A stretch of DNA of 54,012 nucleotides from a virus. The stretch is taken from the UHGV virus genome UHGV-0393070, one strand, 5' to 3'. Shown in pieces: positions 16,405 through 45,153 of the stretch (position 1 is its first letter; each line of letters begins with the position of its first letter). Under the pieces are notes generated by a model that saw only the letters and a program-made list of their open reading frames with translations, was not told the origin of the DNA and did no database searches. The position numbers and the translations under genes are program-made.

Positions 16405-16538
16405 GCCGTTACGCTATTGAGCGGATCCGCGACCGCTGGCAAAAGCTCCGCCTGTTCCGGGACCGCGGCACGGTATTAGTTGACTATCGCATTTTGAAGA
16501 ATTTCGTTCGCATCTATCAGACCTTGGGAGAGACAGCA
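16401..16538 (+). CDS. Small hypothetical nin-region protein (45 aa)
   Basis: MSRYAIERIRDRWQKLRLFRDRGTVLVDYRILKNFVRIYQTLGETA is coupled at both ends (ATGA overlaps). Confidence 0.35.
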
Positions 16539-17227
16539 TGACAGCGCAATATTTAGAATTTGTTCGCCAGCAGCTGATAGTGGCCACCGCCGATCTGAGT
16601 GGCGCGACGAAAGGGCAGTTGGTAGCCTTTGCGGAAAACGCGATGTTTGAGGCGACGGCGCGCAGCAGTAAGCGGATGAAGGTAGTCGACCCGGCAACCG
16701 GGAGAATGGTTAAGCCGAGCAATCCGCCGGTACCGGGGAAACAGTCCCGCGCCAAAGGCTCAGCAATCGCCCTCGTTCTGCCAGTTGAGTATTCTACAGC
16801 CAGTTGGCGCCGGGCTTTGCTGTCGTTGGATGAGCATCAAAAAGCCTGGCTGCTCTGGAACTACAGCGACAATATCCGCTGGGAGCACCAGGAGACGATC
16901 ACTCGGTGGGCGTGGGAGCAATTCAGCCAGCAGTTGGCCGGCGTGCGCATTGCAAAGAAAACAGTTGATCGCCTGCGGCAGCTTATCTGGCTGGCTGCCC
17001 AGGATGCGAAAGCGGTGCTGGCAGGGCGCGACCAGTATCAGTACGGTGACCTTGCGGCGATGGTGGGGGTGACGCCTAAGAACTGGTCGGAAACCTTCAC
17101 AGCTCGCTGGGAGGCGATGATAGGCATCTTTATTGGGCTGGATAGTGATGCACTTTTGCAGGTTACGCGATCACGTTCACAACAAAAGGCGACAAATTTA
17201 GATGTAAGTCTTGCAAAACTGGATTAA
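16538..17227 (+). CDS. Putative late-gene antiterminator (Q-like by position), family uncertain
   Basis: A 229-aa protein, the last gene before the lysis cassette (the Q position of lambdoid phages). It has no Cys cluster like lambda/82 Q, so the call rests mainly on position. Confidence 0.4.
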   Translation: MTAQYLEFVRQQLIVATADLSGATKGQLVAFAENAMFEATARSSKRMKVVDPATGRMVKPSNPPVPGKQSRAKGSAIALVLPVEYSTASWRRALLSLDEHQKAWLLWNYSDNIRWEHQETITRWAWEQFSQQLAGVRIAKKTVDRLRQLIWLAAQDAKAVLAGRDQYQYGDLAAMVGVTPKNWSETFTARWEAMIGIFIGLDSDALLQVTRSRSQQKATNLDVSLAKLD

Positions 17228-20128: not shown

Positions 20129-20764
20129 ATGTTTGGTCATGATGAGAGTAGGCCATATCCTCCCGTCAACTTCACTGGCGAAAGCTGGCTACCGTATACG
20201 CGGATTATCCCGGCCACTGAAATCAGAGAGTGGGTAAATCAGCACATCCTCTTAGAAGAAGGTCGACTCCATAACCCTGACCATACGCACTTGCTCGATG
20301 CTGATGTCGCGTTCATGTGGGCCTCCGGCGCTTTCGAGAAGAAAGGCCGTTATGTACTCGGTCAATGCGAGCAGGTAATGCTACGCGCCGGAGGCTGGCA
20401 GAAAGCCCGTATGGAGCAACAGATGCATGAATGGTTCGGTCGCATACCGAAGTTCATCATCACCCTGGCTGCTGATTACTGCTCACAATGCAGTGACCTC
20501 GAATTCTGCGCGCTGGTAGAGCATGAGCTTTACCACATCGCCCAGGCCACTGATGATTTCGGAGCGCCTAAGTTCAACAAAGAGACCGGGCAGCCAGTGC
20601 TCACAATGCGCGGCCACGACGTCGAAGAATTCACTGGTGTCGTACGGCGATACGGTGCCAGCAAAGAAGTGCAGGAGCTCGTTGATGCGGCCAATGCGCC
20701 AGCAGAGGTGGCTCACATCGATATAGCCAGGTCATGCGGCACATGCATGCTAAAGCTGGCCTAA
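20129..20764 (+). CDS. HExxH-motif protein (putative zinc metallopeptidase-like)
   Basis: A 211-aa protein with HELYH (HExxH) in VEHELYHIAQATDD and several Cys pairs (CSQCSD, CGTC). It lies upstream of the terminase small subunit. Confidence 0.45.
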   Translation: MFGHDESRPYPPVNFTGESWLPYTRIIPATEIREWVNQHILLEEGRLHNPDHTHLLDADVAFMWASGAFEKKGRYVLGQCEQVMLRAGGWQKARMEQQMHEWFGRIPKFIITLAADYCSQCSDLEFCALVEHELYHIAQATDDFGAPKFNKETGQPVLTMRGHDVEEFTGVVRRYGASKEVQELVDAANAPAEVAHIDIARSCGTCMLKLA

Positions 20765-29988: not shown

Positions 29989-30741
29989 ATGCAAGGCTGC
30001 TCCAATAACGAACAACTTATCGGTCGCGCGAAGACGCTGGAACTGGCTTACGGCTGTTCTGACCAGATGCCGGCAGAAGGCGACTGGAAACTCATGGGTC
30101 TGCCGACTTCTGCAACGTGGGATATGAGCCCGGAGGCGCTGACGTCTGATGCAGACAATGGCGGATTCAGTTCGAACCTGATTGCCAGCCTGGACCCGAC
30201 CTATTCCATTGAGGGAGAAGTGCGCGTTCAGGACCGTACTGATGAATTCGGCATTCAGCAGTTCGTGAAGTATATCGCCGATGAAGTCCGAGCCCGACGC
30301 CAGCCTGCGGTATGGATGCGTTTCCATTGGGGCGATTTCTATCACATTGGCTACATGGTCCCGACCGGCGCCAGTGATGGCGGTGGTGTGAAGGAGATCG
30401 TGACCTACAGCTTTGAGTTCAAACTGGCTGACGGTAACACCTTCCAGATCACCGAAGCTGATGATGGCATTCCGGTAACAGGCGTCACAGTCGCTCCGAC
30501 TACCAGCACTGTAGCGGCAGGTTCAAGTACCACGTTTACTGTCAATGTAGCTCCGGATGATGCTGACAATAAACTGTTCACTGTTACCTCTTCTGTGCCG
30601 TCGCGCGCGACCCTAGCCTTCACCGGCAATACCGTAACTGTCTCCGCACCGTCTGGTGCAACAGCTGGCACTGCGGTAATTACCGTTAAGACCGTGGATG
30701 GCGAATTCATAGCCACTCACACAGTAACCGTCACCGTGTAA
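29989..30741 (+). CDS. Major tail tube protein with C-terminal Ig-like (Big_2) domain
   Basis: A 250-aa protein whose C-terminal ~90 aa are a Thr/Val-rich Ig-like repeat (TVAPTTSTVAAGSSTTFTVNV..TVTVSAPSGATAGTAVITVKT), as in lambda gpV. Confidence 0.75.
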   Translation: MQGCSNNEQLIGRAKTLELAYGCSDQMPAEGDWKLMGLPTSATWDMSPEALTSDADNGGFSSNLIASLDPTYSIEGEVRVQDRTDEFGIQQFVKYIADEVRARRQPAVWMRFHWGDFYHIGYMVPTGASDGGGVKEIVTYSFEFKLADGNTFQITEADDGIPVTGVTVAPTTSTVAAGSSTTFTVNVAPDDADNKLFTVTSSVPSRATLAFTGNTVTVSAPSGATAGTAVITVKTVDGEFIATHTVTVTV

Positions 30742-30791: not shown

Positions 30792-31484
30792 ATGACACCA
30801 GTTAAAGAGTTTGGCGAATGCCTGATTACTGCCGGAGACAGGGATTATTTTTTCCGGCCGTCACTGCTGGCCATGTCGCGAATTGGCGAACCTGCTGAAA
30901 TTGTTCAGACGTTCTACGACCTATGCAATGACGAAGTGACCCCGCTGTTAAGGCGAGCTGCTGAATCCTACATCCACAATGAGTACGACCGGCTGCCTGA
31001 TTGCGTGTTGCAGTATATTCAGAGCGGTCTATTGAGCCGCAAGTCGATTATGGCTGCCCATACCGTATTGACTGCCTGCTGTGCTGACGATATCGGCGAG
31101 TTGATAGGATGGATGAAGCCAGGTAAAGGCAGAAAACGCAGTTTTGTCTGGCGCCAGGGAAGTATGCCGCCGCACAACATGGTTATAGTCGCCCAAAGCC
31201 TGATGATGCACGGCATTATCGGCAAGGCAAAAGTGAGGAAGCTCCAGCGGCACGAATCCAGCGATACCACATCTGAATTCCGGGCATCAGATTACATCAT
31301 CGCAGCGCGTAACCACTTCGGTATCAGCAAGGAAGAGGCCGGCCAACTGACGATGACCGAGTTTCAGCTAATGCTCATCGCTAAATACCCTGAGCAGAAA
31401 GGGTACACCCGCGAAGAGTACGATCACGCAGCTGATGACTACTTTGCGCGCCGTAAGCGCAGACAGGATAAAGCCAACCAATAA
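30792..31484 (+). CDS. Putative tail assembly chaperone
   Basis: A 230-aa protein between the major tail protein and the tape measure region. Called by position only. Confidence 0.4.
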   Translation: MTPVKEFGECLITAGDRDYFFRPSLLAMSRIGEPAEIVQTFYDLCNDEVTPLLRRAAESYIHNEYDRLPDCVLQYIQSGLLSRKSIMAAHTVLTACCADDIGELIGWMKPGKGRKRSFVWRQGSMPPHNMVIVAQSLMMHGIIGKAKVRKLQRHESSDTTSEFRASDYIIAARNHFGISKEEAGQLTMTEFQLMLIAKYPEQKGYTREEYDHAADDYFARRKRRQDKANQ

Positions 31485-31663
31485 ACCAGCCTCGGCATAG
31501 TCCGGGGCTTTTTTATACCCGCAATAAACCTCCCGCGCGTCGCAGCGCATACAAAACCCGAGTCTTTCAGAAAGCTGAGCCTGAGGAACGCCGTATAGGT
31601 GCGGACCTTCTCGGGGCGGCGTTTCTGTGCGAACAGGCTCATCTTTCTAAAGGAAATACCGCT

Positions 31664-32221
31664 ATGTCATACCCAACAGTAATTAACGGACTTGATTTTC
31701 GTGATCTGATTTTTGTGGCCGATAACGACCCGGTAACTGACTCGTTTATGGTGGCGAAGGCATTTGGAAAGTTGCCTAAAAACGTAATTCGCGACATTGA
31801 GCGAACTATTGAGGCCTGCCCGCCGGAGTTTGATACAAAACTCAATTTTGAGCTTTGCTATAAAAACAATGAGTTGCAGAACGGTAAGCCGCAGAAGTTC
31901 TATCGTCTCCGCAAAGATGGGTTGATGCTTCTGGTCATGTCCTACACCAAAAAAGAGGCGATGCGCATCAAGATCGCCTACATCAACGCCTTTAACTGGA
32001 TGTACGCAATGCTTCAGGTTGGCCGGCGCCAGTTTGAAGAGGAGCGTAATGCTGTGATGCTTGAGTTCATGAAGGAAAAGGATGTCGCCAGTATGTCTGG
32101 TCGCCTGCTGCGTCGCTGGGGGAAAGAGAAGAAACCGCAGTTACTTTCACGCATTGAGCAACTGGACAAGCAAGGTCAGTTGGCATTGCCCGGCTTTCCA
32201 GGGGTGCTTACCAGATCATGA
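31664..32221 (+). CDS. rha: Rha-family phage regulatory protein
   Basis: The N-terminal FVADNDPVTDSFMVAKAFGKLPKNVIRDIE matches the Phage_pRha signature. It is unusually placed inside the tail morphogenesis block. Confidence 0.75.
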   Translation: MSYPTVINGLDFRDLIFVADNDPVTDSFMVAKAFGKLPKNVIRDIERTIEACPPEFDTKLNFELCYKNNELQNGKPQKFYRLRKDGLMLLVMSYTKKEAMRIKIAYINAFNWMYAMLQVGRRQFEEERNAVMLEFMKEKDVASMSGRLLRRWGKEKKPQLLSRIEQLDKQGQLALPGFPGVLTRS

Positions 32222-32317
32222 AACCCACAGTGCCGTGGTTTTTGAATGGCCCACTCAGGTGGGCTTCTGCTTTATGAATGAATCAGAAATCAGCTAAAAT
32301 CGACCACAACCAACTCC

Positions 32318-32902
32318 GTGAAGGGATGCATAATGACAAACCTCCCCTATGAATATTTCCTTGGTGCCGATGATGACCTCGTCGACTTTCTCGAAAAGCA
32401 AGGCGAGGAATGCATAAAAGAAATTGAGCAATCAAATGCAATAAACAAAGAGAATGGTTATAAACTGCTCGGCATCCTCATAGTCGGCGTCGGGTCTTCG
32501 TTTTTATTGTTGACGCAAAATAACCAGCCTCGTTTTATGACGTTGGGTATCGGGATTTTCATGTTGTACTGGGCTGCATGTGCAATTTACTTGGTTTCAG
32601 GCGTGCTGTCTGTACAGGTGCGCGCGCTCCTTAACTCAGCTCCAGCAGACCTTTACACTGAACTTTACAAGTCGTTGGAGCCAGCGCATTACGAGGAGCT
32701 GGCGCAGAAGGGATTTAGGGCAAAGAGAACACCAATTTCAGTTATCCGGCGAATAAGACTGGCTAATCTCCATGATACCGCTGAAGAGTTGTGTGAGATA
32801 AATGAGCGCATCAGAACAAGGCTGGATAGAGCGAGGATCGCAACAATCCTCACTCCGGTTTGTGCATTAGCTATTTCTACTGTGGGCTATCTTTTTTTCT
32901 GA
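32318..32902 (+). CDS. Hypothetical membrane protein (3 predicted TM helices)
   Basis: Hydrophobic segments GILIVGVGSSFLLL, LGIGIFMLYWAACAIYLVSGVL and ILTPVCALAISTVGYLFF. Part of the tail-module insertion. Confidence 0.45.
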   Translation: MKGCIMTNLPYEYFLGADDDLVDFLEKQGEECIKEIEQSNAINKENGYKLLGILIVGVGSSFLLLTQNNQPRFMTLGIGIFMLYWAACAIYLVSGVLSVQVRALLNSAPADLYTELYKSLEPAHYEELAQKGFRAKRTPISVIRRIRLANLHDTAEELCEINERIRTRLDRARIATILTPVCALAISTVGYLFF

Positions 32903-33163
32903 CCTTGTCAGCAGAATTCCCAACAAATCGACGACCTAATGAGAAGTCTGTTGTAGGCCTACCTTCCTGTGGGGGTTGTGTGGTCTGCTGTTGCGGTGGT
33001 TGATTGTTATCTTGCTTTGGTGGTTGATCGCTCATTTTGCCTTCCTATGGTTCGATTTGAGAACATCGAGTGCTTCGCTCTTAAGGTGCATTAGATGCAC
33101 GCAGAAGAAGCATCCAACCTACCCTGGAAGCGCGCCGCCGAACATCCTGATAAACGATCAGGT

Positions 33164-33229
33164 GGTTTTGTCGTATCGCTTACCCTCTGCTACGATTGCC
33201 GCATCATTTACTGATGGGATAGGGATATG
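33164..33229 (+). repeat. Copy 1 of a ~65-bp conserved leader (promoter/RBS module) preceding an exported-protein gene
   Basis: GGTTTTGTCGTATCGCTTACCCTCTGCTACGATTGCCGCATCATTTACTGATGGGATAGGGATATG is nearly identical to 34237..34303. It contains a TACGAT -10-like hexamer and an AGGGAT RBS, and is preceded by the hairpin CCTGATAAACGATCAGG. Confidence 0.7.
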
Positions 33230-33628
33230 AAACGTATTACAGCAGTGGCATTGCTTTCTCTGGCGTTAACAGGCTGCTATAAGACAGCGCCATCTGAGCA
33301 AGAGGCGATCGATACGGCTAAAAAAGAAGTGTTGATGGCAGTCTGCGGCGACAAAACTAATAGTTGCGTAGATGTAAGTGGCGGGAAGGCGCATATCGCA
33401 GATCGAAGAAATGATAATACCAACCAAGTTACTGTCACCTTCAAAACTATAAAAGCTAATGGTGATGCACAGGAACCAAGGGCTGTGAACGTAGATGCAG
33501 GAATGGTTGTCTACGACTTCGACGCCAAAACAGGTGAAACGTACATTAAACAGCTTTCACTCTGGTCCGATGATGGAAAACACTCCATTGAACTGTGCGG
33601 ACATGATTATAAGTTTTGTCGAAAGTGA
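33227..33628 (+). CDS. Lipoprotein (133 aa), unknown function
   Basis: Signal peptide with lipobox MKRITAVALLSLALTGC. The mature part is Cys-containing. A terminator follows. Confidence 0.6.
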   Translation: MKRITAVALLSLALTGCYKTAPSEQEAIDTAKKEVLMAVCGDKTNSCVDVSGGKAHIADRRNDNTNQVTVTFKTIKANGDAQEPRAVNVDAGMVVYDFDAKTGETYIKQLSLWSDDGKHSIELCGHDYKFCRK

Positions 33629-33640
33629 ATCATAACTCTC

Positions 33641-33666
33641 TAAAACCCGCTTCGGCGGGTTTTTGC
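33641..33666. terminator. Bidirectional rho-independent terminator
   Basis: AAACCCGCTTCGGCGGGTTTTT lies between the convergent lipoprotein gene and the minus-strand 33681..34154 ORF. Confidence 0.7.
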
Positions 33667-33680
33667 TTTCTGCTACAACT

Positions 33681-34154
33681 TCATTGCCCGAGTAGCTTTG
33701 ATAACCCGGCGGTAGTTGCAGCTTGCACCACAGTTTTAAGCACTTCAGTAGACATTTCGCCGAGAGTCGACTTGGCCTTGGCCTTCTGCTCATCACTCAT
33801 GTTTGAAAGCGCGATGAGGTCTTCGAGCACTACGACAGCATCACGATGAAACTTGATCGTCTGCACGTTAAGGATTGCAGAAAGTCCGCCGTCCTGTTGA
33901 ATGAAGTCAATGCCCTTAGCAGTGATCATGATTGCTCCGGGATTTATACTATAGCCGCTAAGATGATGCCGTAACCCGCTGTGAATCAGCTCGTGTTCTT
34001 CAAGGTAAAGCAGGTTTGCTACAAAGGTATCATCACTATCAAACATTGATTTCAACTCTACATATGCATTGTTCTGCAGATGGTTTGGGTAAGCGTTAAA
34101 CAGTATCTGGAGAAGCTCTTTTTGCTTTTCCCTTTCAAGTTTGATCATCTTCAA
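33681..34154 (-). CDS. Hypothetical protein (157 aa), opposite strand within the tail-module island
   Basis: An AT-rich, minus-strand ORF convergent with the lipoprotein gene. No motif recognised. Confidence 0.45.
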   Translation of the reverse strand: MKMIKLEREKQKELLQILFNAYPNHLQNNAYVELKSMFDSDDTFVANLLYLEEHELIHSGLRHHLSGYSINPGAIMITAKGIDFIQQDGGLSAILNVQTIKFHRDAVVVLEDLIALSNMSDEQKAKAKSTLGEMSTEVLKTVVQAATTAGLSKLLGQ

Positions 34155-34236
34155 TCCCGTTAGTGTTTTTTGCTCAGGTACAAGAAAAGTCTACTATAGC
34201 TTGAATTTTGCTATAGGAAATAGCGTTCGAATGGTT

Positions 34237-34303
34237 GGGTTTTGTCGTATCGCTTCCCCTCTGCTACGATTGCCGCATCATTTACTGATGGGGATAGGGA
34301 TAT
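34237..34303 (+). repeat. Copy 2 of the ~65-bp conserved leader
   Basis: GGGTTTTGTCGTATCGCTTCCCCTCTGCTACGATTGCCGCATCATTTACTGATGGGGATAGGGATATG differs from copy 1 by 2-3 mismatches/indels. Confidence 0.7.
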
Positions 34304-35048
34304 GAAAAAGGTGATTTTAGCGGCGTTAATTGGACTTTCAGGCGTGGCTCATGCCGAATGGAAGCACGAAGTTACTCAAGACAAAATGGGGAGAGGTAGC
34401 GATGAGATCGCAACCGTCGTAAGTAGCAATGCTTTATCTCTTCAGCCTCCTTATGAGGGAAAACAAAATGCAACGTTTTCATTGCGAAGTCTTAGAGGTG
34501 AAAATAATGAATTTGTTGTTGCAGTAGAGAAGGGACAAATAATTTGCGAACAAGATGGATGCGGATTATTAGTTAGAGTGGATGATGAAAAAGCATTTCG
34601 GCTTATTGGATCTCATCCTAAAGATGGAAGCTCAGATATGGTCGTTGGTTCAATTAATACAGAAGATTTAAGAAAAATAAAAAAGGCAAAATCAATTTTA
34701 ATTGAATTGACTATTTACCAAAATGGCGAGCATGTACTTGAGTTTGATAGTAAAGATAATCCATTCGTCGGCAGGAAAACTTATCTTATCTCTGAGATTA
34801 GAGAGATGATTGATTCTGGAAAACCACCAAAGCGCACAAAAACATCAGAAGTTCCTATGGATATGCCTAAATTTGATATATGCAAAAAAGTAGCAAATAA
34901 AAGCTCTGAGGATGGGAAAATCACCGTCACAGAGGTGAACAAAAAGGATGAATTCACTACTGCTACGTATGGTGAAGATTCTGTTACGACGCTTGCGTGT
35001 AAGAGAGGTAGCAAAACGTCTATGCTTTCATTTTTTAGATATGATTAA
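34301..35048 (+). CDS. Secreted hypothetical protein (about 249 aa) with cleavable signal peptide
   Basis: MKKVILAALIGLSGVAHA signal peptide (AHA-E cleavage context) starting right after the leader repeat. AT-rich. The supplied ORF start at 34242 lies inside the repeat and is rejected. Confidence 0.55.
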
Positions 35049-35077
35049 CTACCTACAAAGTATTTATAGGTCACATA

Positions 35078-35101
35078 AACCTCGCTCTGGCGGGGTTTTT
35101 T
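35078..35101 (+). terminator. Rho-independent terminator
   Basis: CCTCGCTCTGGCGGGG followed by TTTTTTATT, just upstream of the tape measure gene. Confidence 0.55.
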
Positions 35102-35120
35102 ATTGCCCGGAGAAAAGTAA

Positions 35121-38100
35121 ATGGCTGAGAGCGCTGGCGGAATTTATTACGACATTGAGATGGATGTGCAAGGGCTTCTCGTTGCACAGCAGCGCGTTAA
35201 TCAGCGCCTGGATATGATGGAGCGCGGTTTCGACGGCACTACACGCGCCGTGAACAACACTGAGCGTTCTATGTCCAGCCTGTCAGGCGTGGCTGTTGCT
35301 TTGGCTGCCGCTCTTTCTGTGAAGCAGGTTTCAGAATATGCCGATGCTTGGGCAACAGTAAATAACAAGCTATCAAACTCAGTAAGGCCCACAGAGCAGT
35401 TAGCAGATGTTACGCAGCGTGTTTTTGATGTCACTCAGTCAACAAGAAGTAGCCTTGATGCAACCGCCACACTGTACGCAAGACTGGAAAGAGGAACGCG
35501 GCAGTACAATACATCAGCAGAAGATTTGGCAAAACTCACCACGATAATTAACCAAGGTTTTGTCGTTTCTGGCGCAACAGCACAAGAGGCTGAAAATGCC
35601 ATCATCCAACTATCACAGGGGATAGCCTCTGGCGTGCTGAGGGGTGAAGAATTCAACTCAGTTGCTGAGCAGGGTAGCCGCCTCATGGTTGCCCTGGCTG
35701 ATTCTTTGGGGGTTGGTATTGGCGAACTGCGCGCGATGGCTGCGCAAGGGAAGTTGACCACCGATGTGGTGGTAAATGGACTGCTTTCTCAGGGCACGGC
35801 GATAGGAAAAGAATTTGCCAATACCACGACGACGATCAGCCAGGCACTGCAGGTTGCTGGTAACAACGTAACTAAATTCTTTGGCGAAAACTCTACCGTA
35901 AAAACTGGCGCCGCTATTTTTAATGATGCAGTTGTGACTGCAAGTGAGAACATAGGCGTTCTGAGCGCTGCATTAACTGCTGCAGCGGCAATTATGGGAA
36001 GCCGCTATGTCGGCGCATTGACAATGTCTGCCGCCTCTCAGATCCAGTCTGCTTTGGCGGCCCAGCGTCAGGCCACTGCCAATGCCCAGGCCGCTCAGTC
36101 TGCGCTAATAGCTGCTACGTCAGTGAAGAGAAAGGCGGTTGCAGACAAAGAGGCGGCTTTGTCCTCCCTTGCCTTAGCGCAGGCAGAATATAATGTGGCC
36201 AAGGGTAGCGCAGCTGAAATGCTTGCGCTGGATGCATTAATTGCAGCTAAATCAAGAGCAAGTGCAGCATCATTGTCTTTGGCGCAGGCAGAAACTGCAC
36301 AAGCCGCGGCATCTGCACGAGCAGCAACTGCAGCAAGTGCTGCCTCGGTAGGTATAGGCCTTGCGCGTGGGGCGCTTTCTTTGATTGGTGGTCCTGGTGG
36401 CGCTGCCATGCTGGCAGCATCAGCCATTTTCTACTTCTGGCAGAAAGCTCAACAAGCCAGAGAGGAGGCGCTCCGCTTTGCCGATAGTCTGGACAAAGTA
36501 AACGCCTCAATGAAGGCGATGAATAATACCCAACTCAGGGGCACCATCGCCGATGCTAACGAGTCTATTAGAGCGCAGAAAGATGAAATTTCCGATCTGC
36601 AGGCGGAGGTTGACTCTTTAAGTTCTAGATATCGTAATTTCACCCCAGAAGCTCAAGCTGTAGCTGAATCATTGGGCCAAGGAGCTGATTTTGCCCGTCA
36701 GCAGGCTGAGGTTTCTGACCAGTTAGCCAAGAAATCAAGGGATCTTGCCAACGCTCAAGATAAGTTGGCGCAAACTCAGGAAACTGCGGCTGAAGCCAAC
36801 AGAACATTAACAAACAACATGCTCACTTCAATGGGTGTGCATGATGGGCTGATCCAAAAGGGTTGGTCACTTGAGCAGGTGCAGAGCGCGGTTGCGAAGG
36901 CTTTCGGCAACACGGCTGATGAAATAAACCGAGCAAATCAGGCTGGGCAAAACTTCAACCCCAAAGCGCTGCAGGTATCTCCTCCTACCGCTGATGGCGA
37001 CAAAGTAATTCTTAACCTCGAAGAGCAGAACGAGTTACTGAAAATTCAAGACGATCGCCAAAGAGCAGTGACAAAAGCCAGGATGCAGGCGGCGAAGGTT
37101 ACTGACAACCCAAACCAGATATCAAAAGCTGGCGATCTGGCGGGGGAAAACTTTGATCTGCAAAAATCTGAAGAGGCGCGCAAGGAGGCGCAAAGGAAGA
37201 GTGAGCAGCAGGATAAGCGTTCTGCCACTGCTGCAGAATCGGTAGCGCAGAAGCTCGATAAGCTACGAGCAGCACAGGATCTATCCACGGAGTCTGCCGA
37301 AAAGCGCCGCATCCAGGAAGCTGGCTTGCGTGCCGAGCAATCACTTGGAAGCGGAGCAACGCAGAAGCAACTGAATGAGGCAAGAGCGCTTGGTGAAGCA
37401 AATGAACGTGCCGCGCTATCCATTCAGAAGCGCAAAGAGGCTGAGCAGGGACAGAAGTACGCCAAGCAGGAGATAGCTTCCGCGCAAACTACTGTTGACC
37501 CTTCAACTGGACAGGCAGTTGATCCACTGGCACAGATTAATTTGCAGGAGCAACAAAAACTTGAGGCCCTAGCTAAGTACCAGGAAATTGATAAGCAAAA
37601 CACCCAACTGTACGAGGACGCTAAAACTGCAATCATGCAGCAGGCCTCATACCAACGTCAGGCCATCCTTCTGCAGGAGCAACAGACCTATCAGCAGAAT
37701 GTGAGTTCGCTTTTAGGAGAATCGTCGAATTTTGCTGGCTCCCTGGCGGATGCGATAGGTCAAGCAGCAGGGAAGTCGAGTGCGGCATATCAAGCGCTTT
37801 TCGCTATTAGTAAAGGGTTTGCGATTGCACAGGCGTCCTTGAATCTTCAGACCGCTATCAGTAATGCCATGGCTATCCCGTGGCCCGCCAATATTCCTGC
37901 TATAGCGCAAGCATTGTCTGCTGGCACGCAGATAGTTAGCGCCATAAGCGGGATAAACTATAGTGGCGGCCGTAAGAATGGAGGCCCGGTATCATCCGGC
38001 AATATTTATCCTGTCGGTGAAGACAACCTTCCGGAATTCGTGCAGACCAATAAGGGTCTTTTCATGATACCCGGTGATGATGGCCGGGTATTCAGCAATA

Positions 38101-38399
38101 AAGACGTTACTAGCGGATCACCCAGCATCAAGAAGGCCTCAACTGGCAGTGAATATGTATCAAGCTCGAAGAACAGCGCATCGCAGAGTGACTCCGGTGG
38201 CGGCAAGCAGATTCAGGTTAATGTTCAGTTTTACGACCAGACCTCCGGCGGGCAGCATTCATTTGAGGCTCAGGCAATGCAAGAAGGTAATGTAGTGACG
38301 GTTGATGCGTTCTTAAACGATCTTGACCGTGGTGGACCGATGACATCTGGTATCAAAGACCGGTTCGGGCTTTCTGTAAAAGCCAACGGCGCATACTAA
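35121..38399 (+). CDS. Tail tape measure protein
   Basis: A 1092-aa protein that is Ala/Gln-rich with long coiled-coil-like repeats. Size and position are classic for a TMP. Confidence 0.85.
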   Translation: MAESAGGIYYDIEMDVQGLLVAQQRVNQRLDMMERGFDGTTRAVNNTERSMSSLSGVAVALAAALSVKQVSEYADAWATVNNKLSNSVRPTEQLADVTQRVFDVTQSTRSSLDATATLYARLERGTRQYNTSAEDLAKLTTIINQGFVVSGATAQEAENAIIQLSQGIASGVLRGEEFNSVAEQGSRLMVALADSLGVGIGELRAMAAQGKLTTDVVVNGLLSQGTAIGKEFANTTTTISQALQVAGNNVTKFFGENSTVKTGAAIFNDAVVTASENIGVLSAALTAAAAIMGSRYVGALTMSAASQIQSALAAQRQATANAQAAQSALIAATSVKRKAVADKEAALSSLALAQAEYNVAKGSAAEMLALDALIAAKSRASAASLSLAQAETAQAAASARAATAASAASVGIGLARGALSLIGGPGGAAMLAASAIFYFWQKAQQAREEALRFADSLDKVNASMKAMNNTQLRGTIADANESIRAQKDEISDLQAEVDSLSSRYRNFTPEAQAVAESLGQGADFARQQAEVSDQLAKKSRDLANAQDKLAQTQETAAEANRTLTNNMLTSMGVHDGLIQKGWSLEQVQSAVAKAFGNTADEINRANQAGQNFNPKALQVSPPTADGDKVILNLEEQNELLKIQDDRQRAVTKARMQAAKVTDNPNQISKAGDLAGENFDLQKSEEARKEAQRKSEQQDKRSATAAESVAQKLDKLRAAQDLSTESAEKRRIQEAGLRAEQSLGSGATQKQLNEARALGEANERAALSIQKRKEAEQGQKYAKQEIASAQTTVDPSTGQAVDPLAQINLQEQQKLEALAKYQEIDKQNTQLYEDAKTAIMQQASYQRQAILLQEQQTYQQNVSSLLGESSNFAGSLADAIGQAAGKSSAAYQALFAISKGFAIAQASLNLQTAISNAMAIPWPANIPAIAQALSAGTQIVSAISGINYSGGRKNGGPVSSGNIYPVGEDNLPEFVQTNKGLFMIPGDDGRVFSNKDVTSGSPSIKKASTGSEYVSSSKNSASQSDSGGGKQIQVNVQFYDQTSGGQHSFEAQAMQEGNVVTVDAFLNDLDRGGPMTSGIKDRFGLSVKANGAY

Positions 38400-38401
38400 A
38401 T

Positions 38402-38425
38402 CAACCCGCTTCGGCGGGTTCTTTA
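38402..38425 (+). terminator. Rho-independent terminator-like hairpin
   Basis: AACCCGCTTCGGCGGGTTCTTT immediately after the TMP stop. Confidence 0.5.
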
Positions 38426-38438
38426 ATGGGAGGGAATA

Positions 38439-38606
38439 TGAAATTTTGTGAATTACCGGAGCGAGTACAGGTACAGGCAGCTGAAAGGCTTTCTGATGAA
38501 CTACAGGGGATTGTGGCATGGAAAGAAGAAGAGAGAACGGAAAAAGCGAAGGCGATCGCCAAATCCGTTCGTGAAAGCTTTATTGCATTATGTGCCGATG
38601 ATTAGC
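38439..38606 (+). CDS. Small hypothetical protein (55 aa)
   Basis: MKFCELPERVQVQAAERLSDELQGIVAWKEEERTEKAKAIAKSVRESFIALCADD with a GGGAGGGAAT RBS. Not in the supplied track. Confidence 0.35.
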
Positions 38607-38772
38607 TCTTCTTCTCGTCGTCTTTAAAATGCTCGACAGCTTCATCATAGAGCGACAGCAGTCCAGAAATATTTGATGAGTAAACCGGAACACGTTGAGC
38701 CCTAACCAGCTCGATGATTAGTGCGTAGGCTGACTCTTCAGGGGAGTCTTTAGGGTTAATCAAACCAGACAT
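38603..38772 (-). CDS. Small hypothetical protein (56 aa), convergent with the preceding small ORF
   Basis: MSGLINPKDSPEESAYALIIELVRAQRVPVYSSNISGLLSLYDEAVEHFKDDEKKS with a GGAGG RBS 7 nt upstream. The two genes' stop codons abut (TAG at 38604..38606 and TAA at 38603..38605 share two bases). Confidence 0.35.
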
Positions 38773-38869
38773 AAAACCTCCTATGTTGTAGTGGTTTTAT
38801 CAGCCTAACCTGGCTCGGGGATACTTTATATCCTGATATTCGAACAGTGCCGCAGTCGCGGCTTTTTTA

Positions 38870-39361
38870 ATGCCCGGAGGACACGTGGCTACAGTTCAAT
38901 ACCCTCCGTTCTTGCCGCTTCCCCAGCGCGCCGATCAGAACATGACGCAGGATACAGCCTGGCAGACGACGCAGACGGCTGTCGGCCCTGCGATATTTAC
39001 CCCGATCACAACCGACCTGAAAGCGACCTGGACACTGCAATGGATATTCACACTGCAGCAGGCCGAGCGATTTAAGTCGTGGCTTCGCTCACCGACGTAT
39101 TGCGACCGGGGGCGTAACTGGTTCCAGATGCCGATCGACCTGGGCGATACACAGGGCGTGCAGCAGCAGACGCTTCACTTCGTCAGTATGCCGGTGCAGA
39201 CCAGCAAAAACGGCAGCATCGTTACCTGGACGGCGACGGTTATCAGCAACGGCATCGAGGATGTGACCGAGGATTACGACGACTGGATTGTTGAGGCGCA
39301 GCCTGGTTATGGCTACTGGCTGGATTATCTGGTGACCGAAGTTATGCCGAGGGCTGACTGA
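38870..39361 (+). CDS. Minor tail protein
   Basis: A 163-aa protein, the first gene of the distal tail block after the TMP. Called by position. Confidence 0.5.
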   Translation: MPGGHVATVQYPPFLPLPQRADQNMTQDTAWQTTQTAVGPAIFTPITTDLKATWTLQWIFTLQQAERFKSWLRSPTYCDRGRNWFQMPIDLGDTQGVQQQTLHFVSMPVQTSKNGSIVTWTATVISNGIEDVTEDYDDWIVEAQPGYGYWLDYLVTEVMPRAD

Positions 39362-42767: not shown

Positions 42768-44726
42768 ATGCACATGGCAGAAGTTCCACTTCCAACCCCG
42801 ACACAGTCTCCGGTGCCAAGCACCGATATCCGAAACGCGGTATTTGCAGGCGCAAAGCTTGACGAAGAGGTAACCGGAACTGCGGATTTTTATACCGACC
42901 GTTTTGGCGTAAAGCATCTTACAAATAACGGTAGGAGCAATCAGTTCCAGCAATTTTTACTGTCGTCAGGATATGTTTTCCTTGGGGACTATGAAGATGG
43001 CCCATATCAGTTTGGCGCACGAAACCAATATATCCGATACGATAACCAATATTATCGGCTCAATGCCTCGACTGATGTTGGTTTTACGACAACAGGGACG
43101 AACGATGCCAGCTTTCAGAATGATGTCACTCATTTTGTTTTAATGGATGGAGATACGCTTAGACAAAACCTGGCGGCATCGTCTGGATTAAGCCTAATTG
43201 GAGGGTTGGGATACGTCACGCCGCAGATGTATGGAGCCATACCAGGAAGTAGTACTGTTGATAATACTGTGGCAATGCAATCGGCCATTAATGCTGCGAG
43301 TGGCAAAGTTCTAGATCTGCGTGGCGGGCCATGGCGTGTATCTGCAACGCTCGATTTTACCAGTTTACGCGGGATAATTACTGATTATACCGGAAGGATA
43401 TTAGTAAACCCCGTTGGGTTTTCCGCTCTTCATTCTCGTAAATTTGCGGTTACATTCGGCAACCCTGACACTCCTTTTGGGTCAAATCGGTGTAACCATT
43501 TCACTTGCATAGGATACCTTTTAGTTGAGTCAGATAATCGTGATGCTGAACTTAGCGGAGTCTATATTAAAGGTGCCCTAATGAGTTTCGGGAGCATTCG
43601 TGCCACCAGGTTTAATGGTCACGGACTGCGAGCCGATGCGTGGTGGGATTCCTCAGTTGCATCCATTTCTTACGAATTATGTGGGAATACATCTTTATAC
43701 GCACTGGACTTAAACCCCTATGGGGATACTTCTAACTGTTTATTTATTGGTAGGATTCAGGTTGAACAGGCGTATCACAAACAAATGAACATTAATATTA
43801 TTAGGTCTGTGATAGGGTCAATACACTCTGAGCGACTAAAGATATTAACGTTGGATGACGGCACTACAGGATTACCGTCTGGCCTAACATATCAAAACAC
43901 AAATATAAACATAACCAATACTACAATTGGTCAAATGATTTTAGATGCTGCGGAAGATACTGCAGCTGGGACGGTTAGCGTTAATCCTTCCGTCAGATTA
44001 AATTTATATGAGAGCGAGGTAAGTAGCTTTTATCTAGCGACAAGTGTTGTTTCAAGTACATTCGGACAAAACGGGGTTGTTAAATCGTCTTCGTTCTATA
44101 AATATTACAACCCATCATACTCGGTAACGATGATCGGTTGCCGAGTCACGCGAACAGCAGGAGATGGTCTAGCAGTAGTCGGCGGCTCGGGCTTTTTGGC
44201 CCTTAATTGCACCTTTGATACTTTCACGCCGGACTATAACTCTTCTGGAATAACGTTACAAAAATGCACCATAAATGCCACCTATAACTCGACAAATACC
44301 GGGGTTTCAGGGGTCGTATTTGATCAGACTACGTTTAACGGCAACGTAAGCGGAACCGGTCCGACTGAGGTCTCCAAACCTACTGAATTCAGGTCCTGCA
44401 ATATCCTTGGCACCTTTTCAGGGACATTTCAACACAGGGCAATCATAAAAGGTGGATATATTAATGCGGTGTCTCTTGTATCAAGAGCCTATGCTGAGTT
44501 TGAATCAGTTAAAGGTGGATCGTTTACGTACACCGGAGACAGGGCTTTTGTGACTCGCGGATGTAGTTTCACAACTGTAACTTTCTGGGGGCCGCCAACA
44601 TTTGGAGCCTACAAGGTGGGCCAAAGGACTCAAAGGATAGGTGCCATGCCATCAGGAACTGGAGTTGAGTATGTTAACACTACTGATGCAGGTGCTAATT
44701 TTGTCGCAATTTCTACTATTCCATAA
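42768..44726 (+). CDS. Tailspike/tail fiber with beta-helix region (putative polysaccharide depolymerase)
   Basis: A 652-aa protein. The N-terminal ~150 aa look like a conserved adaptor. The rest is rich in Asn/Thr/Gly/Ser repeats (..NxT.. motifs, TFGNPDT, NCTFDTF, QKCTINATYNSTNTG) typical of right-handed beta-helix depolymerase domains. Confidence 0.65.
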   Translation: MHMAEVPLPTPTQSPVPSTDIRNAVFAGAKLDEEVTGTADFYTDRFGVKHLTNNGRSNQFQQFLLSSGYVFLGDYEDGPYQFGARNQYIRYDNQYYRLNASTDVGFTTTGTNDASFQNDVTHFVLMDGDTLRQNLAASSGLSLIGGLGYVTPQMYGAIPGSSTVDNTVAMQSAINAASGKVLDLRGGPWRVSATLDFTSLRGIITDYTGRILVNPVGFSALHSRKFAVTFGNPDTPFGSNRCNHFTCIGYLLVESDNRDAELSGVYIKGALMSFGSIRATRFNGHGLRADAWWDSSVASISYELCGNTSLYALDLNPYGDTSNCLFIGRIQVEQAYHKQMNINIIRSVIGSIHSERLKILTLDDGTTGLPSGLTYQNTNINITNTTIGQMILDAAEDTAAGTVSVNPSVRLNLYESEVSSFYLATSVVSSTFGQNGVVKSSSFYKYYNPSYSVTMIGCRVTRTAGDGLAVVGGSGFLALNCTFDTFTPDYNSSGITLQKCTINATYNSTNTGVSGVVFDQTTFNGNVSGTGPTEVSKPTEFRSCNILGTFSGTFQHRAIIKGGYINAVSLVSRAYAEFESVKGGSFTYTGDRAFVTRGCSFTTVTFWGPPTFGAYKVGQRTQRIGAMPSGTGVEYVNTTDAGANFVAISTIP

Positions 44727-44735
44727 GGTATGTAA

Positions 44736-44963
44736 ATGGAGATCGTAAGCTACGAAGGCTTTTATTTAGTTAAAAGCAATGGTGATTTTATTGGTGGGCA
44801 ATATGATTCAGAATTATCAGCATCATATGCCATTGAAAAGCTAGACGCTCGCCTGGCTGAGGAGTTGTGGTCAAAGAAAGTGTCTAGACAAAATGAATCA
44901 CCAACAAAATATATATCAGTAGATGATATTGATAGTTACTTACTGGAAGCATATATAACATGA
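44736..44963 (+). CDS. Small hypothetical protein (75 aa) downstream of tailspike
   Basis: An AT-rich ORF 10 nt after the tailspike stop. Confidence 0.35.
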   Translation: MEIVSYEGFYLVKSNGDFIGGQYDSELSASYAIEKLDARLAEELWSKKVSRQNESPTKYISVDDIDSYLLEAYIT

Positions 44964-45153
44964 TTGGCGAAATATAAATTAAATTATGTGATTAATATAA
45001 TATGTTTAACGAAATGAATTTGTACGAATAATGCAATTTCATTTCGTTACCCTTTCTCAAAATATATCTATGGTGAGCCATAAATTAGGGTATATTGATC
45101 TGTTGTGCGTTGTGTAGTAAAATAGTCGCAAAATCAACCACATAATAACACCC

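What the first reader, a model, noticed from the sequence alone, without database searches (positions are those of the whole stretch)
31664..35048. About 3.4-kb moron island inserted inside the tail morphogenesis block
Between the putative tail assembly chaperone and the tape measure gene lie five non-structural genes: a Rha-family regulator, a 3-TM membrane protein, a lipoprotein, an opposite-strand 157-aa gene and a signal-peptide protein. They carry their own terminators and leaders. Insertions at the chaperone/TMP junction are unusual because the chaperone normally reads directly into TMP. Exported proteins expressed from a prophage tail region are candidates for lysogenic conversion, superinfection exclusion or host-interaction factors.
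Basis: partly seen in the sequence, partly recalled or inferred. Interest (0 to 1): 0.6.

Follow-up and report, generated by a model that had tools for sequence, protein, structure and literature searches.

The report
Swappable cargo-gene slot in prophage tail operon
The 3.6-kb block between a tail gene and the tape-measure gene of this Klebsiella-type prophage is real extra cargo. Such cargo at exactly this junction is the textbook case (HK97 gene 15, ES18 genes 18-20), so the finding is ordinary, apart from a conserved promoter/terminator "socket" into which relatives plug dozens of different genes.

Summary
I found a sixth, a 52-aa minus-strand gene at 32877-33035. The island fills the 3636 nt between a DUF6246 gene (ES18 gp17 homologue) and the tape measure gene.

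In 81 related loci this gap is never empty. It spans 481-5917 nt (median 2615), with 54 gene orders and about 76 gene clusters. It is a lineage-wide cargo hotspot, not an unusual insertion. The first element ever called a moron, HK97 gene 15, sits at this junction, and ES18 genes 18-20 were annotated "possible moron" here.

The cargo has two kinds of gene:
- An antirepressor-type regulator (Rha), where relatives carry KilA-N, Bro-N, P22 Ant and Arc/Mnt.
- Envelope proteins: a lipoprotein, a periplasmic protein and a 3-TM protein, plus a winged-helix protein on the opposite strand.

The new point is the bracket. A 68-nt repeat is a conserved cassette: extended -10 promoter-like motif, then an invariant TGGGGATAGGGATATG ending at the start codon. 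In relatives it is fused to at least 32 unrelated genes. The slot closes with a conserved terminator plus TTTTTAWTGCCCGGAGRA before the next tail gene.

That DUF6246 is the chaperone rests on position only. Verdict: new member of a known kind, modest interest.

The parts
29989..30741 (+). Major tail protein with a C-terminal Big_2 Ig domain. It marks the left side of the tail block.
   Evidence: phrog_853 E 1.2e-107; PF02368 E 1.3e-6.
30792..31484 (+). DUF6246 protein, homologue of ES18 gp17. It holds the position of a tail assembly chaperone, but that function is unproven. It is the left border of the cargo slot.
   Evidence: PF19759 E 1.9e-78 and phrog_791 'unknown function'. ES18 annotation: 'function unknown; possible +1 frameshift'. 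No alternative-frame extension in the window. It overlaps the TMP start in L112.
31488..31515 (+). Intrinsic terminator directly after DUF6246.
   Evidence: 8-bp GC-rich stem followed by UUUUUU; -15.3 kcal/mol, z -3.5.
31664..32221 (+). Rha-family regulator (Phage_pRha plus ORF11CD3 domains). It is the antirepressor-type cargo.
   Evidence: PF09669 E 1.5e-21, PF10549 E 5.9e-22, TIGR02681, phrog_518. About 82-85% nucleotide identity to Rha genes of P22-like phages CUS-3 and Sf101.
32333..32902 (+). Membrane protein of 189 aa with three hydrophobic segments. An alternative GTG start lies at 32318.
   Evidence: phrog_11870 E 3.3e-73, aligned from residue 6. Hydrophobic segments at 42-60, 73-91 and 169-187. 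It follows Rha or KilA-N in 6 loci.
32877..33035 (-). It converges on and overlaps the 3' end of the membrane-protein gene.
   Evidence: The ORF is intact and ungapped in L079, L058 and L026. Against L026 (74% nt identity) substitutions fall 24 at the 3rd versus 7 and 10 at the 1st and 2nd codon positions.
33146..33162 (.). Palindrome CCTGAT-N5-ATCAGG just upstream of leader copy a. In relatives the same element lies between the winged-helix gene and a leader.
33164..33229 (+). Leader cassette copy a. It has TTGTCG at 33168-33173, a 17-nt spacer, TGC-TACGAT at 33188-33196, and the core ATGGGATAGGGATATG at 33214-33229 ending in the lipoprotein ATG.
   Evidence: Direct repeat. 94-100% identical in 20 or more loci. 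Part of a cassette family with a conserved TGn extended -10.
33227..33628 (+). Lipoprotein of 133 aa with lipobox LTGC and 4 further Cys. GC 0.445.
   Evidence: phrog_20460 E 5.4e-69 and LPAM_1 weak. Homologues are the only gene in the slot in L029.
33642..33663 (.). Bidirectional intrinsic terminator between the convergent lipoprotein and winged-helix genes.
   Evidence: -14.6 kcal/mol (+ strand, z -4.2) and -13.9 kcal/mol (- strand, z -5.2).
33681..34148 (-). Winged-helix protein of 155 aa (157 aa from the TTG at 34154). It is YjcQ/DUF2513-like and transcribed divergently from leader copy b.
   Evidence: phrog_3983 E 1.1e-46. 10 of 26 family members hit YjcQ and 6 of 26 hit DUF2513. AF2 N-terminal domain has pLDDT above 90 with H-H-H-beta-beta topology. 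Top fold hits are wHTH regulators including YjcQ 2hgc, but the E-values are weak.
34194..34216 (.). Palindrome CTATAGC-N9-GCTATAG between the winged-helix gene and leader copy b. It is a candidate operator.
   Evidence: Read from the sequence. Partly retained (one arm altered) in L074, which has the 93%-identical winged-helix protein. Loci with other variants carry CCTGAT-N5-ATCAGG instead.
34238..34304 (+). Leader cassette copy b. It has TTGTCG at 34242-34247, TGC-TACGAT at 34262-34270, and the core TGGGGATAGGGATATG at 34289-34304.
34302..35048 (+). Periplasmic or secreted protein of 248 aa with a signal peptide cleaved after AHA. GC 0.375; a rare family.
   Evidence: Only 13 clusters among 5.8 billion proteins, all unnamed. 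The Rahnella homologue lies after the TMP behind the same leader core.
35077..35114 (+). Slot-closing cassette: an intrinsic terminator (35077-35098) followed by TTTTTATTGCCCGGAGAA, which supplies the ribosome-binding site for the tape measure gene.
   Evidence: A terminator followed by a CCGGAG-type ribosome-binding site lies upstream of the TMP in all 53 distinct sequences, including loci with only 25-34% identical TMP N-termini.
35121..38399 (+). Tape measure protein, the right border of the slot.
   Evidence: PF20155 E 1.1e-56; phrog_1107.
38864..38881 (+). Second copy of the closing motif, TTTTTAATGCCCGGAGGA, before the next tail gene. It ends a small second slot (38400-38884) that holds a 55-aa plus-strand ORF and a 56-aa minus-strand ORF.
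   Evidence: Two matches in the window against 0.01 expected; sequence.
16538..17227 (+). Q-like late antiterminator. It is the inferred means by which late transcription passes the slot terminators.
   Evidence: phrog_304 E 2.4e-94.

Best explanation
The region is the standard accessory-gene (moron) slot of the tail operon in ES18-like, DUF6246-carrying lambdoid siphovirus prophages of Klebsiella, Enterobacter, Salmonella and E. coli. Here it is filled with three mosaic modules.

**Module 1** holds an Rha-type antirepressor-like regulator, a 3-TM membrane protein and a small convergent 52-aa gene.

**Module 2** is a self-contained unit: leader, outer-membrane-type lipoprotein, terminator.

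**Module 3** holds a divergently transcribed winged-helix protein, a candidate operator, the same leader, a periplasmic protein, and a terminator.

**How it most likely works.**
- In the lysogen, each leader acts as a constitutive or locally regulated sigma-70 promoter of the extended -10 type (TGC-TACGAT). It has a short untranslated region of about 26 nt and a fixed Shine-Dalgarno/start box.
- It drives one exported protein, and the terminator behind that gene stops transcription from running into the tape measure gene.
- During lytic growth, Q-modified late transcription reads through all three terminators.
- The conserved box after the last terminator re-supplies the ribosome-binding site for the tape measure gene.
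- Both ends of a cargo unit are conserved sequences, while the cargo between them is unrelated from phage to phage. Cargo is therefore exchanged by homologous recombination at these ends.
- The envelope proteins most likely modify the cell surface or block DNA entry (superinfection exclusion). Rha most likely belongs to the phage's own antirepressor circuitry.

**Shown:** gene content, repeats, terminators, variability, and conservation of the bracket.
**Inferred:** promoter activity, expression in the lysogen, antitermination, the recombination route, and every protein function.
For: **Variability of the slot.**
- The gap between DUF6246 and the TMP gene spans 481-5917 nt in 81 loci, with a median of 2615. 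The window's gap is 3636.
- There are 54 gene orders and about 76 ORF clusters, a few of which are probably spurious antisense ORFs.
- Annotated relatives show from 1 to 7 genes in the slot.

**Moron hallmarks.**
- Cargo GC is 0.375-0.48 against 0.51-0.55 for the flanks.
- Two terminators fold at -14.6 and -15.3 kcal/mol (z -3.5 and -4.2); the third, just before the TMP gene, folds at -12.1 kcal/mol with z only -1.9.

**The leader cassette.**
- The 68-nt cassette is 94-100% identical in loci whose DUF6246 protein is only about 73% identical.
- Conservation stops exactly at the ATG, and the cassette is fused to at least 32 downstream families. About three quarters of these families are exported or membrane proteins.
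- Among 54 non-redundant variants, TG lies immediately 5' of the TAnnnT hexamer in 42-46. This feature was not imposed by the search.
- In variants L055, L058 and L061 the changes fall in the spacer, while the hexamers and the spacing are kept.
- The leader has no consensus RNA structure; 0 pairs were predicted.

**The closing cassette.**
- A terminator followed by a CCGGAG-type ribosome-binding site lies immediately upstream of the TMP start in all 53 distinct sequences; the loop, T-tract and spacer vary slightly.
- It recurs before the next tail gene in the window.

**Other support.**
- The last gene before the TMP gene is exported in 64 of 81 loci, or 42 of 54 gene orders.
- The same leader serves other tail-operon slots.
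- A Q-like antiterminator is present in the window.
- An antirepressor-type gene occurs in 45 of 81 slots and Arc/Mnt in 22.
- Literature precedent exists at the same junction.
Against: - No expression data exist for any of these genes.
- The simple sigma-70 scan did not flag the leader, because its hexamers match only 8 of 12 positions. The promoter reading therefore rests on conservation of TGn-TAnnnT, and the T, A and T of that hexamer were required by my own filter.
- A canonical -35 element is absent in several cassette subtypes.
- Strict invariance of the 16-nt core is more than a Shine-Dalgarno sequence needs, and it is unexplained.
- No cargo protein matches a known exclusion or defence family in PADLOC, NCBIfam, Pfam or PHROGs.
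- The link between the winged-helix protein and the palindromes could simply reflect co-inheritance of adjacent DNA.
- The fold matches for the winged-helix domain have weak E-values, 0.09 or higher.
Confidence: 0.72

Rival explanations
1. The whole island is mainly a phage regulatory region of the P22 immI type, not host-benefit cargo. Under this view Rha is an antirepressor, the winged-helix protein is its Mnt/Arc-like controller, and the exported proteins are incidental passengers.
For: - Relatives carry Arc/Mnt (PF03869 plus PF11423), P22_AR_N, Bro-N plus P22_AR_C, KilA-N and ORF6N genes in the same slot.
- 45 of 56 slots longer than 1.5 kb hold such a gene.
- PHROGs place the Rha protein among 'anti-repressor' families.
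Against: - The window has no Arc/Mnt gene.
- The winged-helix gene is adjacent to the exported-protein leader, about 1.5 kb from Rha and facing away from it.
- Minimal slots contain only an exported protein and no regulator.
- The gene next to the TMP is exported in 64 of 81 loci.
Confidence: 0.3
2. The leader is not a promoter. It would be a translational control or recombination element, for example a binding site for an RNA-binding regulator on the GGA-rich core, or the joint used by a dedicated cassette-exchange mechanism. The cargo would then be expressed only from the late transcript.
For: - The 16-nt core is invariant while everything upstream drifts.
- Unrelated ORFs are joined precisely at the ATG.
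- The hexamers score only 8 of 12 against the sigma-70 consensus.
- Two direct copies lie 1074 nt apart in the window.
Against: - The TGn extended -10 motif is conserved at a fixed distance of 15-19 nt from the core.
- A terminator precedes many cassettes and another follows the cargo, which is pointless for genes expressed only by read-through.
- No RNA structure is conserved.
- No integrase-like or recombinase-like gene is linked to the slot.
Confidence: 0.2
3. The genes are conserved but unrecognised tail-assembly or tail-accessory components. One of them, rather than DUF6246, would be the real chaperone.
For: - DUF6246 shows no frameshift signal and no similarity to known chaperones.
- Among the 81 closer relatives, some gene always lies between DUF6246 and the TMP gene.
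Against: - The intervening genes differ completely between close relatives, across 54 gene orders. Even the single gene of minimal slots belongs to at least five unrelated families, mostly with signal peptides.
- In L112, L128, L103 and L097, DUF6246 abuts or overlaps the TMP gene with nothing in between.
- Exported proteins cannot act as chaperones for cytoplasmic tail assembly.
Confidence: 0.03

Closest known systems
HK97 gene 15 moron (Juhala et al. 2000; Cumby et al. 2012; reviewed in PMC3594210)
   Same: It is an extra transcription unit with its own promoter and terminator, and GC content unlike its neighbours. [quoted passage not shown]
   Different: HK97 carries one small gene. Here there are six genes in three modules, including two regulators. 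There is no sequence similarity to gp15, and exclusion activity is untested.
Phage ES18 genes 18-20 (record NC_006949, annotated as 'possible moron')
   Same: This is the same lineage and the same slot. Gene 17 is DUF6246, followed by three cargo genes with annotated terminators, followed by the TMP gene. ES18 gene 20 is a lipoprotein preceded by the same leader core, TGGGGGATAGGGATATG.
   Different: The cargo genes differ (ES18 has a DUF4041 protein, for example). The ES18 record, as held in this collection, annotates terminators but no promoter or leader cassette; I could not read the ES18 paper itself.
P22 immI region (mnt-arc-ant embedded among late genes); from established knowledge of P22
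   Same: Antirepressor-type genes with small repressors are embedded in the late morphogenetic operon. Relatives of this prophage carry true Arc/Mnt and P22_AR genes in this slot.
   Different: The window has an Rha-domain protein and no Arc/Mnt. Regulation by the winged-helix protein is only conjecture.
T4-type PeSL mobile regulatory cassettes (promoter-early stem-loop; recalled from Arbiol et al. 2010, not re-read here)
   Same: Short conserved promoter and hairpin cassettes flank highly variable ORFs, and are proposed to drive modular gene shuffling by recombination.
   Different: PeSLs belong to lytic T4-like phages and carry early promoters. The sequence is different, and here the cassette also fixes the ribosome-binding site and start codon.
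Receptor-blocking or entry-blocking prophage envelope proteins (Cor of phi80/N15, Llp of T5; P-FimU of F10-like Pseudomonas phages, PMC12952977)
   Same: These are small lipoproteins or exported proteins encoded within or next to tail genes and expressed from the prophage. P-FimU lies between the tail tube and chaperone genes.
   Different: No homology was detected to any annotated exclusion family. The target receptor is unknown.

Membership tests
Moron (Juhala/Hendrix definition) | Extra DNA lies between genes that are adjacent in related phages. | tested here: met
   The slot length runs from 481 to 5917 nt with interchangeable content. DUF6246 and the TMP gene overlap in L112.
Moron (Juhala/Hendrix definition) | It has its own factor-independent terminator. 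| tested here: met
   Hairpins followed by U-tracts lie at 33642-33663 and 35077-35098, and at 31488-31509 upstream.
Moron (Juhala/Hendrix definition) | It has its own promoter. | tested here: inconclusive
   TTGTCG-17-TGC-TACGAT is present, and TGn-TAnnnT is conserved in 42-46 of 54 variants. However, the simple sigma-70 scan did not report it, and activity was not measured.
Moron (Juhala/Hendrix definition) | Its base composition differs from its neighbours. | tested here: met
   GC is 0.375-0.48 against 0.51-0.55.
Moron (Juhala/Hendrix definition) | It is expressed from the repressed prophage. | not testable with these tools
   This needs RNA-seq or reporter assays in a lysogen.
Tail assembly chaperone G/GT (for 30792-31484) | The gene lies between the major tail protein and tape measure genes. 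| tested here: met
   It is directly coupled to the TMP gene in L112.
Tail assembly chaperone G/GT (for 30792-31484) | A programmed frameshift produces a longer second product from an overlapping ORF. | tested here: not met
   Neither alternative frame is open beyond the stop codon. No alternative-frame ORF of 40 aa or more overlaps the gene for either XXXYYYZ heptamer to shift into. ES18 annotators only suggested a 'possible +1 frameshift'.
Tail assembly chaperone G/GT (for 30792-31484) | It has sequence or fold similarity to characterised chaperones. | tested here: inconclusive
   There are no significant PDB sequence hits, E >= 0.59. PHROG labels it 'unknown function'. The AF2 model has pLDDT 52 and is unusable.
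Rha family regulator (PF09669 / TIGR02681) | It scores above the curated cut-off for the family model. | tested here: met
   77.1 bits against a cut-off of 29.9, and 86 bits against 45.95.
YjcQ / DUF2513 winged-helix proteins (for 33681-34148) | It matches the family model. | tested here: inconclusive
   The window protein itself has no hit. 10 of 26 homologues match YjcQ (best E 1e-4) and 6 of 26 match DUF2513.
YjcQ / DUF2513 winged-helix proteins (for 33681-34148) | It has the winged-helix fold. | tested here: met
   Residues 8-88 have pLDDT above 90 with three helices and a beta-hairpin. Nearly all of the 50 listed PDB matches are wHTH regulators, including YjcQ 2hgc (probability 0.97), though E-values are 0.09 or higher.
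P22 immI-type antirepressor module | An Ant-type gene occurs together with Arc/Mnt ribbon-helix-helix repressors. | tested here: not met
   The window slot has no RHH gene. The feature is met in the relatives Oslo, L112 and L215, and in cluster 0.
Known anti-phage defence systems (PADLOC) | It matches any PADLOC model. | tested here: not met
   Nine slot proteins gave 0 hits.
Cor/Llp-type exclusion lipoproteins | It has a lipoprotein signal peptide and is encoded beside tail genes. | tested here: met
   The lipobox LTGC is present, and the gene at 33227-33628 lies inside the tail operon.
Cor/Llp-type exclusion lipoproteins | It is homologous to Cor or Llp, or has demonstrated receptor blocking. 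| not tested
   The only PHROG hits are families of unknown function. No direct comparison with Cor or Llp sequences was run, and there is no phenotype.

The most novel reading that the evidence does not exclude
The tail operon of this phage lineage contains standardised 'sockets'. Each opens with a conserved cassette: the upstream unit's terminator, an extended -10 promoter, and an invariant 16-nt ribosome-binding/start box. Each closes with a conserved terminator plus the CCCGGAG box, which restores translation of the next tail gene. The same opening cassette is used in at least three different tail-gene junctions and across Klebsiella, Enterobacter, Salmonella and Rahnella prophages. Under this reading the sockets form a dedicated plug-and-play system. 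It lets any ORF be swapped in by recombination and expressed at once in the lysogen without disturbing tail gene expression. A cognate winged-helix protein and palindrome may add switchable control. The strict invariance of the start box would then reflect a second function, either as the recombination joint or as the target of a translational regulator.
Probability: 0.35. Interest if true: 0.55.

Novelty: new member of a known kind. Interest (0 to 1): 0.33.

Why it matters
The finding as written adds one more example to a well-documented class. Morons at the chaperone/TMP junction have been known since HK97 and ES18.

Two things could be useful.

First, the slot gives a catalogue of about 30 or more small exported, lipoprotein and membrane proteins of unknown function. 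Klebsiella-group prophages appear to express them from a common cassette. They are candidates for superinfection exclusion or surface modification in clinically relevant hosts.

Second, the conserved opening and closing cassettes give a simple sequence handle, TGGGGATAGGGATATG and TTTTTAWTGCCCGGAGRA. This handle could locate cargo slots automatically in enterobacterial prophages, and it could be used to engineer insulated payloads into phage tail operons.

Tried and rejected
- **Rfam.** A scan of the whole window at gathering thresholds gave 0 hits, so the leader is not a described RNA family.
- **RNA structure of the leader.** RNAalifold predicted 0 pairs for 15 diverse leaders. The CAUCA/UGAUG hairpin of subtype 1 is not kept in variants.
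- **Leader as a translated N-terminal extension.** The ORF from 34242 reads MSYRFPSATIAASFTDGDRD-MKK, but I rejected this reading for three reasons.
  - The two window copies differ by a 1-nt indel that shifts the frame, yet both downstream ORFs stay intact.
  - The signal peptides start exactly at the ATG.
  - The subtypes differ in ways that do not fit coding sequence.
- **Structure of DUF6246.** The AF2 model from 19 sequences has pLDDT 51.7 and was not used for fold search. PDB sequence and profile searches returned only chance-level PAS-domain hits, E >= 0.59.
- **Frameshift in DUF6246.** No open alternative frame was found.
- **Defence systems.** PADLOC and NCBIfam gave no hits for the cargo apart from Rha.
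- **Weak Pfam hits.** Searching up to E = 10 gave nothing meaningful for the cargo.
- **The 67-aa minus-strand ORF at 31439-31642.** I treated it as spurious. It spans the DUF6246 terminator and has no family hits. I did not test it further.
- **Papers not held.** The HK97 gp15 paper (PMC3430355) and the ES18 genome paper could not be read. I used the review PMC3594210 and the ES18 GenBank annotation instead.
- **Literature searches.** Searches for DUF6246 and for Klebsiella tail-operon morons found nothing specific.

Full report
**1. What is in the window**

Upstream lie the Ig-domain major tail protein (29989-30741; phrog_853, E 1e-107) and a DUF6246 protein (30792-31484; PF19759, E 1.9e-78; phrog_791 'unknown function').

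Downstream lies the tape measure protein (35121-38399; TMP_3, E 1.1e-56). After it come tail-tip genes, including an NlpC/P60-type gene and the large tail-tip (TipJ-like) gene (names from the homologous loci).

Between the DUF6246 stop codon and the TMP start codon are 3636 nt containing:
- Rha (31664-32221; PF09669, PF10549, TIGR02681).
- A membrane protein with three hydrophobic segments (32333-32902; phrog_11870).
- A lipoprotein (33227-33628; lipobox LTGC).
- A minus-strand gene (33681-34148).
- A signal-peptide protein (34302-35048).

I add a sixth gene, a 52-aa minus-strand ORF at 32877-33035. In a relative with 74% nucleotide identity it stays open and ungapped. Substitutions are concentrated at third codon positions, 24 against 7 and 10.

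Cargo GC is 0.375-0.48, against 0.51-0.55 for the flanking tail genes.

Three terminator hairpins are present: 31488-31509, 33642-33663 (which works on both strands) and 35077-35098. The last ends 23 nt before the TMP start codon. The first two fold far better than shuffled controls. The third stands out less (z -1.9).

The prophage is lambdoid. It has an S24-type repressor, NinB/NinG, a Q-like antiterminator (16538-17227; phrog_304, E 2e-94), a lysis cassette and a lambda-type integrase.

**2. The slot in relatives**

DNA and protein searches recovered Klebsiella phages, E. coli prophages, 80 IMG/VR contigs and 7 GTDB genomes that carry the same DUF6246 gene.

In 81 loci where both borders could be placed, the gap runs from 481 to 5917 nt, with a median of 2615. 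It is never empty. It shows 54 different gene orders built from about 76 ORF clusters.

Even when the slot holds a single gene, that gene belongs to one of at least five unrelated families, mostly with signal peptides or lipoboxes. The gene next to the TMP gene is exported in 64 of 81 loci, or 42 of 54 distinct gene orders.

The window's island is a mosaic of modules seen separately elsewhere:
- Rha plus the membrane protein plus the small antisense gene occurs in L007, L079 and L058.
- The lipoprotein occurs in L020, L029 and L002.
- The minus-strand gene occurs in 14 loci.
- The 248-aa protein has no close homologue among the 81 slot loci. It recurs unchanged in L149, and elsewhere belongs to a family of only 13 protein clusters in 5.8 billion.

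Many relatives carry an immI-like set in the slot: Arc/Mnt, P22_AR_N, Bro-N plus P22_AR_C, KilA-N plus P63C, and ORF6N. Others carry HTH_3 or SocA/Panacea proteins, or an IS element. An antirepressor-type gene is present in 45 of 81 slots.

The Rha gene therefore sits where this lineage keeps antirepressor-type regulators. It should not be counted as a host-interaction factor without evidence.

**3. Is this junction unusual?**

No. [quoted passage not shown]

The ES18 record, from the same lineage, labels genes 18-20 'possible moron', with terminators. These genes lie between gene 17 (DUF6246) and the TMP gene.

**4. Is DUF6246 the chaperone?**

Only its position says so. ES18 annotators wrote 'function unknown; possible +1 frameshift'.

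The other tests gave nothing:
- Neither alternative frame is open past the stop codon in the window. No alternative-frame ORF overlaps the gene for a slippery heptamer to shift into.
- Sequence and profile searches of the PDB found only chance-level hits.
- The AlphaFold2 model was too poor to use, pLDDT 52.
- The predicted pI is 8.2.

In favour of a conserved tail role, a divergent subgroup (41-43% identity; L112, L128, L103, L097) has DUF6246 abutting or overlapping the TMP start. There the cargo island sits upstream, between the major tail protein and DUF6246.

**5. The repeated leader**

The direct repeat at 33164-33232 and 34238-34307 is the most informative feature.

It recurs at 94-100% identity in 20 of the first 91 loci, although the flanking DUF6246 proteins are only about 73-77% identical. 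Its conservation ends exactly at the ATG of unrelated genes.

Relaxed searches show a family of cassettes with one layout:
- often a terminator hairpin whose T-tract runs into a TTGTCG or TTGC motif;
- a spacer;
- TGn followed by TA(CG/GG/AT/TC)(A/C)T;
- 15-19 variable nucleotides;
- the invariant TGGGGATAGGGATATG, which contains the start codon.

Among 54 non-redundant variants, TG lies immediately 5' of the hexamer in 42-46. I did not select for this feature. It defines extended -10 promoters.

At least 32 downstream gene families use the cassette, and about three quarters are exported or membrane proteins.

The cassette also occurs in two other tail-operon slots: between the major tail protein and DUF6246 (L112), and after the TMP gene (L215, a Rahnella prophage). 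It is rare in E. coli, found in 3 of 5426 genomes.

It matches no Rfam family and has no conserved RNA structure.

The simple promoter scan did not report it, because the hexamers match only 8 of 12 positions. Promoter activity therefore remains an inference.

**6. The closing cassette**

Immediately upstream of the TMP start, all 53 distinct sequences share a terminator hairpin, a T-tract and a CCGGAG-type ribosome-binding site; in most it reads (A/T)TGCCCGGAGAAAAG. This holds even where the TMP N-termini are only 25-34% identical and the preceding cargo differs.

In the window the motif TTTTTAWTGCCCGGAGRA occurs twice, against 0.01 expected. One copy precedes the TMP gene and one precedes the next tail gene, at 38864-38881.

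This second copy closes a small second slot (38400-38884) with two short ORFs. The cargo units are thus bracketed on both sides by conserved sequence. That arrangement explains exchange by homologous recombination and insulation from the tail genes.

**7. The opposite-strand gene**

Its homologues weakly match YjcQ and DUF2513. The AlphaFold2 model has a confident N-terminal winged-helix domain. Nearly all of the 50 listed PDB matches are winged-helix regulators, including YjcQ, though the E-values are weak.

In most of the 14 loci that carry it, it is divergent from a leader cassette at a fixed distance, 136-147 nt between the two start codons where both could be placed.

The palindrome upstream of the leader tracks the protein variant. 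The window has CTATAGC-N9-GCTATAG, and L074 keeps it with one arm altered. The other variants have CCTGAT-N5-ATCAGG. This suggests local regulation, but simple linkage would explain it equally well.

Leader copy a in the window carries the 'other' palindrome, with no cognate gene nearby.

**8. Verdict**

It is wrong on the point that made the finding seem interesting, since this junction is the classic place for morons. It also over-reads the chaperone label and the role of Rha.

The finding is a new member of a known kind. The standardised opening and closing cassettes are, as far as the searched literature shows, not described. They are the part worth following up.

Noticed in passing
window 42768-51134 and 52252-53337: Downstream of the tail genes, next to the lambda-type integrase, lies a low-GC (0.33-0.44) cluster. 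It encodes a tail fibre/spike-like protein, a Wzy_C (O-antigen ligase/polymerase-like) protein, a 538-aa protein of unknown function, a Wza-like polysaccharide export lipoprotein and an AT3+SGNH acyltransferase. This looks like a surface-polysaccharide conversion module. A Wza homologue is unusual in a prophage.
   Followed up: partly
window 11089-12998: A GC 0.34-0.36 island in the early region encodes a DndB-like protein (PF14072, E 5e-19) followed by a 310-aa protein with no family. It may be a defence or anti-defence pair.
   Followed up: no
window 1538-3697 (-): A single 719-aa ORF fuses a C5 cytosine methyltransferase domain to a D12-class N6-adenine methyltransferase domain.
   Followed up: no
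window 38400-38884: A second small cargo slot lies directly after the tape measure gene. It starts with a terminator-like hairpin and a leader-like box (ATGGGAGGGAATATG), holds a 55-aa plus-strand ORF (38438-38605, phrog_9419) and a 56-aa minus-strand ORF (38602-38772), and ends with a second copy of the closing motif.
   Followed up: partly
window 32877-33035 (-): A small 52-aa gene overlaps the 3' end of the membrane-protein gene by 26 nt, and it occurs in all four other distinct loci that carry that gene. Its substitutions follow a coding pattern. The pair could be a two-component exclusion or toxin-antitoxin-like unit.
   Followed up: partly
window 20129-20764: A transposase-like ORF (phrog_513, E 6.5e-100) sits just upstream of the terminase/portal region. 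IS5-type transposases also occur inside the cargo slot of some relatives, such as L065.
   Followed up: no
L011/L032 slot (clusters 42-43): Some relatives carry a SocA/Panacea-domain antitoxin-like protein followed by a 150-aa partner in the same slot. This is a likely toxin-antitoxin or abortive-infection cargo.
   Followed up: no
window 38870-39361: The next tail gene probably starts at the GTG at 38885, which has GGAGGA 3 nt upstream, rather than at the listed ATG at 38870. This follows the layout of the closing cassette before the TMP gene.
   Followed up: no
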